A DNA stretch of 64,000 bases, taken from Chloroflexota bacterium. GTDB taxonomy: Bacteria > Chloroflexota > Dehalococcoidia > Lucifugimonadales > UBA3495. Shown piece after piece: positions 50,085 to 51,222 of this stretch; position 1 is the first letter of the stretch; each line of letters begins with the position of its first letter. The stretch lies in contig JAQBVF010000008.1 of assembly GCA_027623675.1 (NCBI GenBank), positions 53,137-117,136 on the forward strand. The letters are read 5' to 3'. The notes below the pieces were generated by a model. That model did not search any database and had not been told where the DNA came from. It worked only from the letters and a program-made list of their open reading frames with translations. A program made the position numbers and the translations under genes.

Positions 50085-50099
50085 CAACTGTCTTGGATG

Positions 50100-51047
50100 T
50101 CAAGGCGTTTGAAGGCTTGGCTGCCAATCTCGGCCGTGTTTCACCATGGAGTTTAGAATGACCAAGAGCTTGCGCATACAGGCGGTCAGGGCCACCTTCT
50201 TGGGTTTGCTCGTGGAGCATAACCTTTGGTAAAAGTCCTTGATCACTGGGTTGTACCGGGCCGCCACCAAGGCCGCCATGTAGAGGACCGCCCGGACTCG
50301 GCGGCGTCCTCCCCAGACGGTGCGCTTGCCCCGGAGGGTCCCGCTGTCCCGGTTGAACGGCGCTACGCCCGCCAAGGCGGCGATCTGGCCTCTGCTCAAG
50401 GCGCCCAGTTCCGGCAGGCTGGCCAGCAGCGTCGCCGACAGCACCGGACCCACGCCGGGAACGCTCCTTATAATCCTTTCTTTGGTCCGCCACATTGGAC
50501 TGGACCGGATGAAACCATCCAGGTCTTGGTCCAAGTCATTCAGATTTTTCTCCAGCCATTGGATGTGCTCTTCCAGCTGAGGACGGATACGGGCAATGAC
50601 CGTCCTGCGGCGGTTTTTCTCGGCAGTGATCATCTCCACCAGCTGCCGTCTCCGGCCCACCAGAGCCTGCAACTCTTGGGCGTCGGCATCCGGAATGGGT
50701 CTGGGCTCGGGCTCCATCGCCTGACCGAAGCGGGCCAACACCTGGGCGTCCAAGGTGTCGGTCTTGGCCAGATTGCCAGCGGCGCGGGCGAAGTCCCTTA
50801 CGTGTCTGGGGTTGACCACCGCCACCGGAAGACCGGCCGACGCCAGTTCAGCGGCGAGGGCCCGCTCCAAGCCTCCCGTGGCTTCCAGCACCACCAAGGA
50901 GGGACCCATGCCCACCAGTCCCTCGGTCAACTCACCGATGCCGCCTGCATCGTTGGGGACCTGCCAGACATCCCCCGTAGGCCGGGCTGCCACGTCCAAG
51001 CGGTTCTTGGAAACGTCAATGCCAATGAATACCCGCGAGTCGTTCAT
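50100..51047 (-). CDS. IS110 family DEDD recombinase/transposase (315 aa)
   Basis: GIDVSK, LEATG, KTDTLDA RuvC-like DEDD; VPGVG; RDSG catalytic serine loop; ACMRKL; GGAGG RBS before ATG 51047. Confidence 0.96.
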
Positions 51048-51069
51048 ACACCTACCTCCCATCACTGTT

Positions 51070-51207
51070 TCCCCGTCCCTGTCCCGGCCTTGCATGATAC
51101 GGGCTCAAAGCGCCCCGTCAACTGTTCGGGCTCCGGGCGGGAAGGACGTGGCGGCCTAGCTGAGCCACGGTCTTTAAGACCTAGGACGATCCGGCCTGCC
51201 ACGTCCT
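51070..51207 (-). ncRNA. Predicted IS110 bridge RNA (target-binding and donor-binding loops)
   Basis: 10-bp stem AGGACGTGGC/GCCACGTCCT encloses GATCGTCCT and GGCTCAG, which match the target. A second stem-loop carries ACAGTTG and ATGCAAG, which match the donor. The 3' end is approximate. Confidence 0.88.
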
Positions 51208-51222
51208 GGTTTAAGATACAAG

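What the first reader, a model, noticed from the sequence alone, without database searches (positions are those of the whole stretch)
50085..51222. IS110 recombinase with a fully decodable bridge RNA aimed at a host REP-like repeat
Seen in sequence (element strand): the rebuilt target is GCTCGTC-CT-GAGCC and the rebuilt circle-junction donor is ACAGTTG-CT-TGTAT. The non-coding end upstream of the recombinase forms two bulged hairpins. Loop 1 (stem 51207-51198/51152-51143) has GATCGTCCT (51191-51183, 8/9 to the left target plus core) and GGCTCAG (51166-51160, exact complement of CTGAGCC) around an inner hairpin GGTCT-TAA-AGACC. Loop 2 has ACAGTTG (51125-51119, 7/7 to the left donor) and ATGCAAG (51095-51089, complement of CTTGTAT with one G-T wobble). 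Established knowledge: this is the LTG/RTG/LDG/RDG layout of the IS621 bridge RNA, which guides programmable DNA recombination. The mechanism class is known. Inference: this is an intact ortholog with its own target specificity from a distant host, and a candidate genome-editing tool. Whether this ortholog is already catalogued cannot be told from the sequence.
Basis: partly seen in the sequence, partly recalled or inferred. Interest (0 to 1): 0.93.

Follow-up and report, generated by a model that had tools for sequence, protein, structure and literature searches.

The report
Intact IS110 element with bridge RNA
This is a complete, multi-copy jumping gene of the IS110 family whose own guide ("bridge") RNA spells out the repeated host sequence it lands in; the reading is correct, but it is one more member of a class described in 2024.

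Summary
Window 51222-50085 (minus strand) is a 1138-bp IS110-group insertion sequence. It has a 315-aa DEDD/serine recombinase and a 175-nt left end that folds into two bulged hairpins.

A covariance model built from 43 relatives, without the window, hits 51208-51077 at 119.9 bits (E 1e-26). Among 44 relatives, 19 of 25 stem pairs show compensatory changes. Across 67 insertions the target guides track each element's own flanks (0 of 5000 permutations reach the observed match). The genome holds at least four identical copies, all in the same arm of a REP-like palindrome. The element ends carry two halves of a TTGACA-17-TATCTT promoter that would join only in the excised circle.

Refinements:
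- The outer two bases of the right donor guide are probably incidental. A split guide as in IS621 fits the family better.
- Position 2 of the left target guide never matches.
- The RNA lacks the 5' stem loop of IS621.

No RNA data exist, and activity is inferred. This is a new member of a known kind. The scan has met bridge RNAs before on other DNA.

Side finding: Rfam sX15 models the antisense strand of such RNAs.

The parts
50085..51222 (-). Whole IS110-group element, 1138 bp counting the left copy of the CT core (51222-51221)
   Evidence: Junctions read. The ends match 100% to six contig-end fragments in the same genome. Ends CTTGTATCTT and GACAGTTG-CT are conserved in relatives.
51223..51229 (-). 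Left target GCTCGTC, followed by core CT at 51222-51221
   Evidence: Other copies have GCTCGTC, GCTCATC and GCTGGTC.
50078..50084 (-). Right copy of core CT (50084-50083) and right target GAGCC (50082-50078)
   Evidence: All four right junctions read CT-GAGCC.
51077..51208 (-). Bridge RNA core: target-binding loop plus donor-binding loop
   Evidence: Covariance model R1, built without the window, scores 119.9 bits with E 1.2e-26 over model positions 1-134. Stem covariation is shown.
51143..51207 (-). Target-binding loop. Outer stem 51207-51198 with 51152-51143. Left target guide 51191-51183. Inner hairpin 51181-51169. Right target guide 51166-51160. Following C at 51159 is the handshake position.
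   Evidence: Guide-flank covariation.
51082..51131 (-). Donor-binding loop. Left donor guide 51125-51119. Inner hairpin about 51118-51099. Invariant AU 51098-51097. Following G at 51088 is the handshake position.
   Evidence: In the window the outermost consensus pair 51131/51082 is a G-A mismatch.
51213..51218 (-). TATCTT, the -10-like half of the circle-junction promoter
   Evidence: Found at left-end positions 5-10 in 34 of 42 distinct end pairs of relatives.
50098..50103 (-). TTGACA, the -35-like half of the circle-junction promoter. It overlaps the recombinase stop codon TGA (50102-50100).
   Evidence: TTGAC[A/T/G] lies 13 nt from the right end in 34 of 42 distinct end pairs. The spacer in the circle would be 13 + CT + TG = 17 nt.
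50100..51047 (-). Recombinase gene, 315 aa plus stop. GGGAGG at 51060-51055 is the likely ribosome-binding site.
   Evidence: Pfam PF01548 at 5.7e-25 and PF02371 at 2.2e-20. ISCro4 at 2.6e-40 and IS621 at 2.8e-39.
51094..51121 (-). Promoter-like TTGACG-16-TATCAT inside the donor-binding loop. It could drive the recombinase in the integrated state.
   Evidence: It is the only sigma-70-like site found in 49900-51460; shuffles give a mean of 0.2. It is a consensus match only and overlaps guide sequence.
49922..50018 (-). Neighbouring unoccupied REP-like palindrome of the same family as the target
   Evidence: It folds as 11 bp, a 2x2 internal loop, then 10 bp, with z -4.05; 0 of 200 shuffles fold as well.
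63946..64000 (-). Right end of another copy of the same element, cut by the contig end
   Evidence: 100% match to element positions 1084-1138. Its flank reads CT-GAGCCCCGTCGAAGG.

Best explanation
Window 51222-50085 (minus strand) is an intact IS110-group insertion sequence that was probably mobile recently. It sits in a genome whose nearest relatives are Dehalococcoidia MAGs.

Inferred life cycle, by homology with IS621:
1. The element excises as a circle.
2. Joining the right end to the left end across the CT core places TTGACA 17 bp before TATCTT.
3. [quoted passage not shown]
4. A tetramer of the 315-aa DEDD/serine recombinase binds two loops of this RNA.
5. The donor loop pairs with the circle junction. 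[quoted passage not shown] AU...GCAAG pairs with the top strand CTTGTAT, including one G-T pair.
6. The target loop pairs with a host site. (G)AUCGUCCU pairs with the bottom strand of GCTCGTC-CT. GGCUCAG pairs with the top strand CT-GAGCC.
7. Strands are exchanged at CT, inserting the element without a scar.

The host site is one arm of a REP-like palindrome, at the edge of its internal loop.

What is shown here: the anatomy, homology, structure covariation, guide-flank covariation, multiple identical copies in matching sites, and the split promoter motif.

What is inferred: transcription, the RNA's ends, circle formation and catalysis.
For: Protein:
- Both IS110 domains are present.
- It aligns over its full length to the solved IS621 and ISCro4 recombinases.
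- D11, E55, D97, D100 and S235 align with IS621 D11, E60, D102, D105 and S241. The role of those residues comes from passages of PMC11208158.

RNA structure:
- In 44 aligned left ends, 97.8% of pair cells are paired, against 91.1 +/- 0.3 in shuffles.
- 19 of 25 pairs show changes on both sides, against 6.8 +/- 1.5. 0 of 500 shuffles reach either value.
- Slid controls pair only 34-46% of cells.
- Model R1, built from 43 relatives without the window, hits 51208-51077 at 119.9 bits.

Guides, own genome:
- 4 of 4 right junctions read CT-GAGCC.
- The left junctions read GCTCGTC (two), GCTCATC and GCTGGTC.

Guides, relatives:
- 67 insertions gave 64 distinct guide-plus-flank sets and 43 distinct guide pairs.
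- The right target guide matches its own flank 7 of 7 in 46 of 64 sets.
- The summed match is 555, against 373 +/- 11 when flanks are permuted. 0 of 5000 permutations reach 555.
- There are 29 right-target-guide classes. The representative's own flank is identical in 17 and differs by one base in 8.

Donor:
- The ends are conserved in all listed loci.
- The left donor guide and the right end change together in three variants: ACAGTCG, ACAGCTG and ACGGTTG.

Copy number:
- One full copy plus three left and three right contig-end fragments, all 100% identical.
- The element's unitig has about 4 times the word depth of its flanks in two runs. These may be the source sample, and the tool warns that depth is not copy number.
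- A 915-nt contig with one difference is present in a run of another study.

Promoter halves are conserved in 34 of 42 end pairs each. A promoter rebuilt at the junction is described for IS110 elements in passages of PMC11208160.
Against: - No RNA run holds the stretch, so transcription is untested.
- No circle junction or empty site was seen in the contigs laid. Contigs drop rare forms, so this says little.
- The single-sequence fold is only marginally better than shuffles (z -1.82).
- The left target guide has a constant mismatch at position 2.
- The right donor guide match is not significant alone (6816 of 20000 shuffles).
- In the window the outermost donor-loop stem pair is G-A.
- No perfect unoccupied 14-nt target is left in the assembly (0 hits). 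Present-day targets would therefore be imperfect ones.
- 4 of 64 guide-flank sets match poorly (left guide 4 or fewer of 8; right guide 3 of 7 in 2 sets).
- 13 of the 80 loci could not be parsed and were left out (9 without a recognisable left end, 3 without a parsable target loop, 1 without a right end). One further locus, L047, lacks a left flank and was also left out.
Confidence: 0.93

Rival explanations
1. The element is a dead relic. The guide matches record a past insertion, but the copy no longer moves.
For: - No RNA or circle evidence was found.
- No perfect free target is left in the assembly.
- One donor-loop stem pair is mismatched in the window.
- A second IS110-group element in the same genome carries an in-frame stop, so decay does occur here.
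Against: - The ORF is open and all five catalytic residues are present.
- At least four copies are 100% identical over the parts that can be compared.
- A contig 99.9% identical is present in a sample of another study.
- Both promoter halves are intact.
Confidence: 0.05
2. The structured left end is a translational leader or an antisense-sRNA locus of the sX15 type, not a guide RNA.
For: - The only Rfam match is sX15, on the opposite strand, at 52.4 bits and just under the gathering score of 55.
- In Xanthomonas both strands of the homologous locus are transcribed, according to passages of PMC3300014.
Against: - A leader or antisense role does not predict that two loop segments track the flanking DNA of each insertion, or that a third tracks the element's right end.
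- No promoter-like site was found on the + strand in 49900-51460.
- On pXCV183 my model hits the strand opposite sX15. An IS110-type ORF start follows on that same strand.
Confidence: 0.02
3. The four guide matches are chance matches in a GC-rich structured region.
For: Each single match occurs in 0.7-1.5% of shuffles, and the right donor guide match occurs in 34%.
Against: - All four matches together occur in 0 of 20000 shuffles.
- The same columns match in relatives with different targets.
Confidence: 0.005

Closest known systems
IS621 of Escherichia coli (IS110 group). Recombinase plus 177-nt bridge RNA. Durrant 2024 PMC11208160; Hiraizumi 2024 PMC11208158 and 2026 PMC13626964.
   Same: - Domain pair and all five catalytic residues.
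- Long left end before the gene and a short right end.
- Order of the target loop then the donor loop, each being stem, 5' guide, inner hairpin, 3' guide.
- 5' guides read the bottom strand and 3' guides read the top strand.
- CT core.
- A G-T pair in the right donor guide at the same place as G161-dT12 of IS621.
- One handshake base after each 3' guide can pair with position 7 of the other DNA.
- The target lies in a repeated palindrome.
- The promoter is split across the ends.
   Different: - The protein match is distant (E 2.8e-39 over the full length; I did not compute identity).
- The RNA is about 133 nt. Only 16 nt lie between the core and the target loop, so there is no room for the 5' stem loop that passages of PMC11208158 call structurally conserved.
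- The right target guide is 7 nt, against 4 paired in the IS621 structure.
- The target sequence is different.
- The non-coding right end is only 15 nt, and the -35 box overlaps the stop codon.
ISCro4 recombinase (PDB 9t56)
   Same: It is the best solved-structure sequence match, E 2.6e-40 over residues 6-312.
   Different: I compared the protein only. I did not see its RNA.
ISHne3 / ISMno7 cluster in Supplementary Table 1 of PMC11208160
   Same: It shares the KTDTLDAQ stretch and an xNRDSG serine loop with the window's protein, so it is probably the nearest named ISfinder clade.
   Different: I saw only the two domain alignment strings. The file was cut when stored. Neither identity nor RNA was compared.
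Rfam RF02234 sX15, with asX7, of Xanthomonas plasmid pXCV183 (PMC3300014)
   Same: It has the same two-hairpin architecture and clear sequence likeness. My model R1 hits the same plasmid stretch at 61.6 bits.
   Different: - The Rfam model matches the strand opposite the recombinase.
- On pXCV183 my model hits the minus strand, which is the asX7 side. There an ORF beginning MNGIGIDVCKAKL follows and then breaks off.
- sX15 therefore appears to be the antisense of a bridge RNA.
- The window's score is below the family's gathering score.
REP-targeting IS110 elements of Pseudomonas putida: ISPpu9 (PMC12288879) and ISPpu10 (bioRxiv 10.64898/2026.03.19.712850). Abstracts only seen.
   Same: They insert into repetitive extragenic palindromes and are multi-copy.
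   Different: The host phylum, the repeat family and the guide sequences differ. I did not compare sequences.

Membership tests
IS110 family, IS110 group (bridge recombinase elements, IS621 type) | [quoted passage not shown] | tested here: met
   PF01548 at 88.3 bits (cut-off 29). PF02371 at 73.3 bits (cut-off 21.3)..
IS110 family, IS110 group (bridge recombinase elements, IS621 type) | Catalytic D, E, D, D and the Tnp-domain serine | tested here: met
   D11, E55, D97, D100 and S235 (with G236) align with chain residues 13, 62, 104, 107 and 243 of 8wt6_A, which correspond to native D11, E60, D102, D105 and S241 with a 2-residue offset.
IS110 family, IS110 group (bridge recombinase elements, IS621 type) | Long non-coding left end before the gene and short right end (the IS1111 group has the reverse) | tested here: met
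   175 nt before the ATG and 15 nt after the stop. The group definition comes from passages of PMC11208160.
IS110 family, IS110 group (bridge recombinase elements, IS621 type) | Left end folds into two internal-loop hairpins conserved by covariation | tested here: met
   19 of 25 pairs show compensatory changes; 0 of 500 shuffles reach this. The independent model scores 119.9 bits.
IS110 family, IS110 group (bridge recombinase elements, IS621 type) | First loop's two guides match and covary with the left and right target flanks | tested here: met
   Own genome. Relatives: 0 of 5000 permutations reach the observed match.
IS110 family, IS110 group (bridge recombinase elements, IS621 type) | Second loop's two guides match the element's right and left ends | tested here: met
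   Left donor guide matches 7 of 7, with three co-varying variants in relatives. GCAAG pairs with CTTGT and is near-invariant. The outer part of the right donor guide is ambiguous between a contiguous and a split reading.
IS110 family, IS110 group (bridge recombinase elements, IS621 type) | CT core present at both junctions | tested here: met
   One relative, L056, has TT at the left.
IS110 family, IS110 group (bridge recombinase elements, IS621 type) | Promoter rebuilt across the joined ends of the circle | tested here: met
   Motif level only. TTGACA in the right end and TATCTT in the left end would be 17 bp apart after joining. Each is conserved in 34 of 42 end pairs.
IS110 family, IS110 group (bridge recombinase elements, IS621 type) | RNA is made, binds the recombinase, and recombination depends on the guides | not testable with these tools
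   No RNA holder was listed. Only contigs could be laid.
Rfam RF02234 sX15 | Score at or above the gathering score, on the strand of the RNA | tested here: not met
   52.4 bits against 55, and on the strand antisense to the element.

The most novel reading that the evidence does not exclude
This Dehalococcoidia clade is a naturally minimal bridge system. It has a 315-aa recombinase and an RNA of about 133 nt that starts directly at the target loop, without the 5' stem loop. It has 7 + 7 nt of target guide. The clade has been retargeted many times in nature (29 right-guide classes among 43 guide pairs). If it is active in other hosts it would be a more compact scaffold than IS621. In addition, two co-resident elements cross over at the edge of the internal loop on opposite arms of the same REP-like hairpin. 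This would fit target choice that reads DNA structure as well as sequence.
Probability: 0.3. Interest if true: 0.45.

Novelty: new member of a known kind. Interest (0 to 1): 0.3.

Why it matters
This is a clean, fully annotated natural example of bridge-RNA-guided transposition from a phylum distant from the studied models. Its clade gives a ready-made natural reprogramming series, in which the same donor ends are paired with many different targets. Such a series is useful for learning guide rules.

The lack of a 5' stem loop shows that this part is dispensable in nature. For genome annotation, the element explains several contig breaks in this MAG.

The mechanism, the family and the idea of mining orthologs are already established. 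A specialist would not be surprised.

Tried and rejected
- **Rfam.** There was no bridge-RNA family hit on the element strand. The only notable match was sX15 on the opposite strand, below its gathering score. The other four matches (E 0.73-6.2) were dismissed as chance.
- **RNA evidence.** No RNA holder was listed. This says nothing on expression.
- **Laying contigs of three DNA runs.** No right-end-to-left-end joint and no joint that skips exactly the element were found. The joints at 49959/51299 and 49960/51298 in X3 have short sides (22-25 nt) and extra letters between, and probably link REP-like repeats of other organisms. The X1 'back' joint 51231 to 49998 carries 32 letters that equal the flank of another copy (L003), so it is not a circle.
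- **pXCV183.** A recalled GenBank accession was not in the collection; the RefSeq accession worked. The annotated 98-aa ORF beside sX15 has no Pfam family.
- **Antisense ORF.** A long antisense ORF (50226-51296 +, 356 aa) was considered as a gene. The codon-aligned antisense frame is stop-free in 30 of 81 relatives, with a median of 2 stops, and the other two frames are never stop-free. I read this as a by-product of GC-rich codon use, but did not test it further.
- **Antisense regulator RNA in the window.** No + strand promoter-like site was found.
- **Second handshake base.** It is pairable in only 14 of 64 sets, so I claim only one handshake pair.
- **Not run.** I did not run the large protein searches, structure prediction or complex prediction, because sequence homology to solved structures already settles the fold.
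Full report
**The observation.** I read 51500-49700 on the minus strand and checked every string.
- The left junction is GCTCGTC-CT followed by TGTATCTTAAACC.
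- The right junction is ...GACAGTTG followed by CT-GAGCCCGTCGAAGG.
- The minimum-energy and centroid folds of the 176-nt left end both give two bulged hairpins. The energy is only marginally better than shuffles (z -1.82; 6 of 200 shuffles fold as well), so the single-sequence fold is weak evidence.

I tested the matches against 20000 dinucleotide-preserving shuffles of the left end.
- The left target guide match was reached 278 times.
- The right target guide match was reached 301 times.
- The left donor guide match was reached 142 times.
- The right donor guide match, with wobble allowed, was reached 6816 times.
- All four together were reached 0 times.

The right donor guide match alone therefore means little. 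The set of four is far from chance.

**The protein.**
- The ORF 51047-50100 (315 aa) carries DEDD_Tnp_IS110 (5.7e-25) and Transposase_20 (2.2e-20).
- It aligns over residues 6-312 with the solved ISCro4 (2.6e-40) and IS621 (2.8e-39) recombinases.
- D11, E55, D97, D100 and S235-G236 align with the IS621 residues that passages of PMC11208158 name as the composite active site (D11, E60, D102, D105, S241, G242). The deposited chain is numbered two higher.
- I chose the ATG at 51047, not the upstream ATG at 51095 listed. It has GGGAGG 8 nt before it, and the homology begins at residue 6.

**Relatives.** A scan of one genome per species found 604 pattern matches. Of these, 553 encode a relative, and the best 80 were kept.
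- Most are Dehalococcoidia MAGs, with a few labelled Nitrospira, Nitrospirota, deltaproteobacterial, Rhodobacterales and Aphanocapsa. Identity is 56-85%.
- In all loci where ends could be found, the element ends are conserved (CT-TGTATCTT... and ...GACAGTTG-CT), while the DNA outside them differs widely.
- This is the pattern expected of a constant donor and a programmable target.

**RNA structure.**
- I aligned 44 distinct left ends (A1). RNAalifold gives the two-loop fold.
- I removed two predicted pairs between the donor guides and counted the remaining 25 pairs.
- 97.8% of cells are paired, against 91.1 +/- 0.3 in shuffles.
- 19 pairs change on both sides, against 6.8 +/- 1.5. 0 of 500 shuffles reach either value.
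- Sliding the partner by 1-3 columns drops pairing to 34-46%.
- The outer stem of the target loop carries most of the signal, with GC/AU swaps in 15-20 sequences at four pairs.
- A covariance model built from 43 relatives without the window (A2, R1) hits window 51208-51077 on the minus strand at 119.9 bits and E 1.2e-26, full length.

**Guides and flanks.** In the same genome (48 contigs, 91% complete by the tool's figure) the element matches once in full and six times at contig ends at 100% identity.
- The three extra left junctions read CCGCTCGTC-CT, CCGCTCATC-CT and CCGCTGGTC-CT.
- The three extra right junctions all read CT-GAGCC(C)CGTCGAAGG.
- Together with the window's own junctions, the right target guide fits 4 of 4 right junctions perfectly.
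- The left target guide fits TCGTC-CT or one-off variants. Its second base (A) matches none.

For the relatives I parsed guides with a pattern anchored on the conserved loop skeleton.
- Of the 80 loci plus the window, 9 had no recognisable left end, 3 had no parsable target loop, 1 had no right end and 1 had no left flank. That left 67.
- These gave 64 distinct guide-plus-flank sets and 43 distinct guide pairs.
- The right guide matches its own flank 7 of 7 in 46 of 64 sets, and 6 of 7 in 12.
- Mean own match is 6.55, against 3.85 for other elements' flanks.
- For the left guide the mean best 8-mer match is 6.48, against 4.78.
- Permuting flanks among the 43 guide pairs gives 373 +/- 11 (maximum 416), against 555 observed. 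0 of 5000 permutations reach 555.
- The 29 right-guide classes include CTACAGG, CTCTCCC, CTGAACA, CTGGTCA, CTCGCTG and others. In 17 classes the representative's own flank is identical, in 8 it is one base off, and in 4 it is worse.
- Several mismatched cases are insertions into a neighbouring variant of the same repeat. One example has a CTGAGCC guide in a CTGAGGG site.

**Donor side.**
- The left donor guide ACAGTTG is near-invariant, as is the right end.
- Where one changes the other does too: ACAGTCG in L032, ACAGCTG in L065/L067/L069, and ACGGTTG in L048.
- Two relatives break the rule: L030 has a deletion in the guide and L033 has a final A.
- On the other side, GCAAG (ACAAG in three) is near-invariant and pairs with CTTGT, with a G-T pair at the last position. 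This is the same place as the non-canonical G161-dT12 pair in the IS621 structure (passages of PMC11208158).
- An invariant AU sits 2-3 nt further upstream, at 51098-51097 in the window.
- In IS621 the right donor guide is split in just this way, with two flipped-out bases. I therefore think the family-wide mode is AU...GCAAG. The window's contiguous AUGCAAG is either a lucky alternative or equivalent.

**Handshake positions.**
- The base after each 3' guide fits the handshake scheme described for IS621 at one position.
- The C after GGCUCAG can pair with donor position 7 (G).
- The G after GCAAG can pair with target position 7. That position is C in 58 and T in 4 of 64 sets.
- The second handshake base is pairable in only 14 of 64 sets.

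**Promoter.**
- The right end carries TTGACA 13 nt from its tip, overlapping the stop codon. The left end carries TATCTT at positions 5-10.
- After circularisation the spacer would be 17 bp.
- In 42 distinct end pairs of relatives, TTGAC[A/T/G] is at that place in 34 and TATCTT in 34.
- Passages of PMC11208160 describe the same arrangement for IS110 elements.
- A start about 7 nt after the -10 box would fall at the foot of the target-loop stem.
- Only 16 nt separate the core from that stem in the window and in 16 other aligned relatives. The other 27 have 28-72 nt, many with a small hairpin.
- The window's RNA therefore lacks the 5' stem loop that passages of PMC11208158 call structurally conserved and mildly helpful.
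- In the integrated state, the only sigma-70-like site in 49900-51460 lies inside the donor loop: TTGACG-16-TATCAT, 10 of 12. It is a consensus match only.

**The target.**
- The pattern CCTG[AG]G...TCGAAGG occurs 24 times in the genome. By my count about 19 carry the CCGCTC[A/G]TC-type left part.
- The unit next to the element (50018-49922) folds as an 11-bp stem, a 2x2 internal loop and a 10-bp stem, with z -4.05; 0 of 200 shuffles fold as well.
- The element's CT core lies at the edge of that internal loop, in the right arm.
- The exact 14-nt target is not left unoccupied anywhere in the assembly (0 hits). The nearest free sites differ by one or two bases.
- 'REP-like' is therefore fair. 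Insertion of IS110 elements into REP sequences is long known (reference list and passages of PMC11208160).

**Activity.**
- In two runs that may be the source sample, the element's unitig has word depth 37 against 8-10 for the flanks, and 197 against 46-47. This is in line with about four copies, though the tool warns that depth is not copy number.
- A run from another study holds a 915-nt contig with one difference.
- No listed run is RNA.

**What is known, and novelty.**
- The mechanism class (Durrant 2024; Hiraizumi 2024 and 2026) is established. Ortholog mining is under way (search listing).
- Durrant's Supplementary Table 1 has 25 Chloroflexi rows and a cluster named ISHne3;ISMno7 that shares the window's KTDTLDAQ stretch. 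That file was cut when stored.
- A search for IS110 with Dehalococcoid* gave three unrelated papers.
- I rate this a new member of a known kind.
- Earlier notes of this scan describe bridge RNAs on other DNA. They call this genome a marine SAR202 bacterium. I did not check that name. The nearest relatives' record titles say Dehalococcoidia.

**Side findings.**
- Rfam's sX15 model hits the window on the strand opposite the element. My model hits the sX15 locus of pXCV183 on the strand opposite sX15, and an IS110-type ORF start follows there before breaking off. The 2011 paper reports sX15 and asX7 as a complementary pair with ten homologues in Stenotrophomonas (passages). No paper in the library links sX15 or asX7 to bridge RNAs (searches for 'sX15' + 'Xanthomonas', 'asX7', and 'bridge RNA' + 'Rfam', listing only).
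- A second IS110-group element in contig C43 has its own bridge RNA (61.9 bits), a recombinase gene with one in-frame stop, and a target on the other arm of the same repeat.

Noticed in passing
window 51068-51220 (+); L089 1893-2025 (-), which is NC_007507 116392-116524: Rfam RF02234 (sX15) appears to model the reverse complement of IS110-group bridge RNAs. It hits the window antisense to the element. On pXCV183 my bridge-RNA model hits the strand opposite sX15 (the asX7 side), followed by a truncated IS110-type ORF start. No paper found with 'sX15' or 'asX7' makes this link.
   Followed up: partly
L091 1483-2679 (own genome, contig C43, about 47570-48766): A second, different IS110-group element. 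Its left end reads CT-TGTATTATAG. Its bridge RNA at 1501-1633 scores 61.9 bits. Its recombinase frame 1664-2659 has one in-frame stop at 2354-2356. Its right end reads ...TTGACATCTATTACAGCAT-CT. It sits in GGTTCGACGGG-CT-CACCACGAGCGG, the opposite arm of the same REP-like palindrome.
   Followed up: partly
window 50226-51296 (+): A 356-aa ORF runs antisense through almost the whole element and out past its left end. In relatives the codon-aligned antisense frame is stop-free in 30 of 81 loci and the other frames never are.
   Followed up: partly
window 49907-51450: The whole gap between two convergent genes (48197-49906 + and 52899-51451 -) is filled with REP-like units (for example 51325-51299, 51262-51240 and 50018-49922) plus the element. 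These repeats encode protein-like strings and recur in many Dehalococcoidia MAGs, as shown by the flanks of the related loci.
   Followed up: no
own genome contig ends: C15:1-80, C33:1-67, C23:1-66, C7:1-59, C5:155800-155845, and window 63946-64000: Six contig ends of this MAG stop inside copies of this element, so the element explains several assembly breaks. The pairing of left and right ends could guide scaffolding.
   Followed up: no
L009, L027-L029, L071, L036: Some relatives have damaged left ends. In these the target loop is replaced, or the donor loop is duplicated (L036 repeats CCCGAACAGTTGCC twice). They may be decayed copies or copies with insertions.
   Followed up: no
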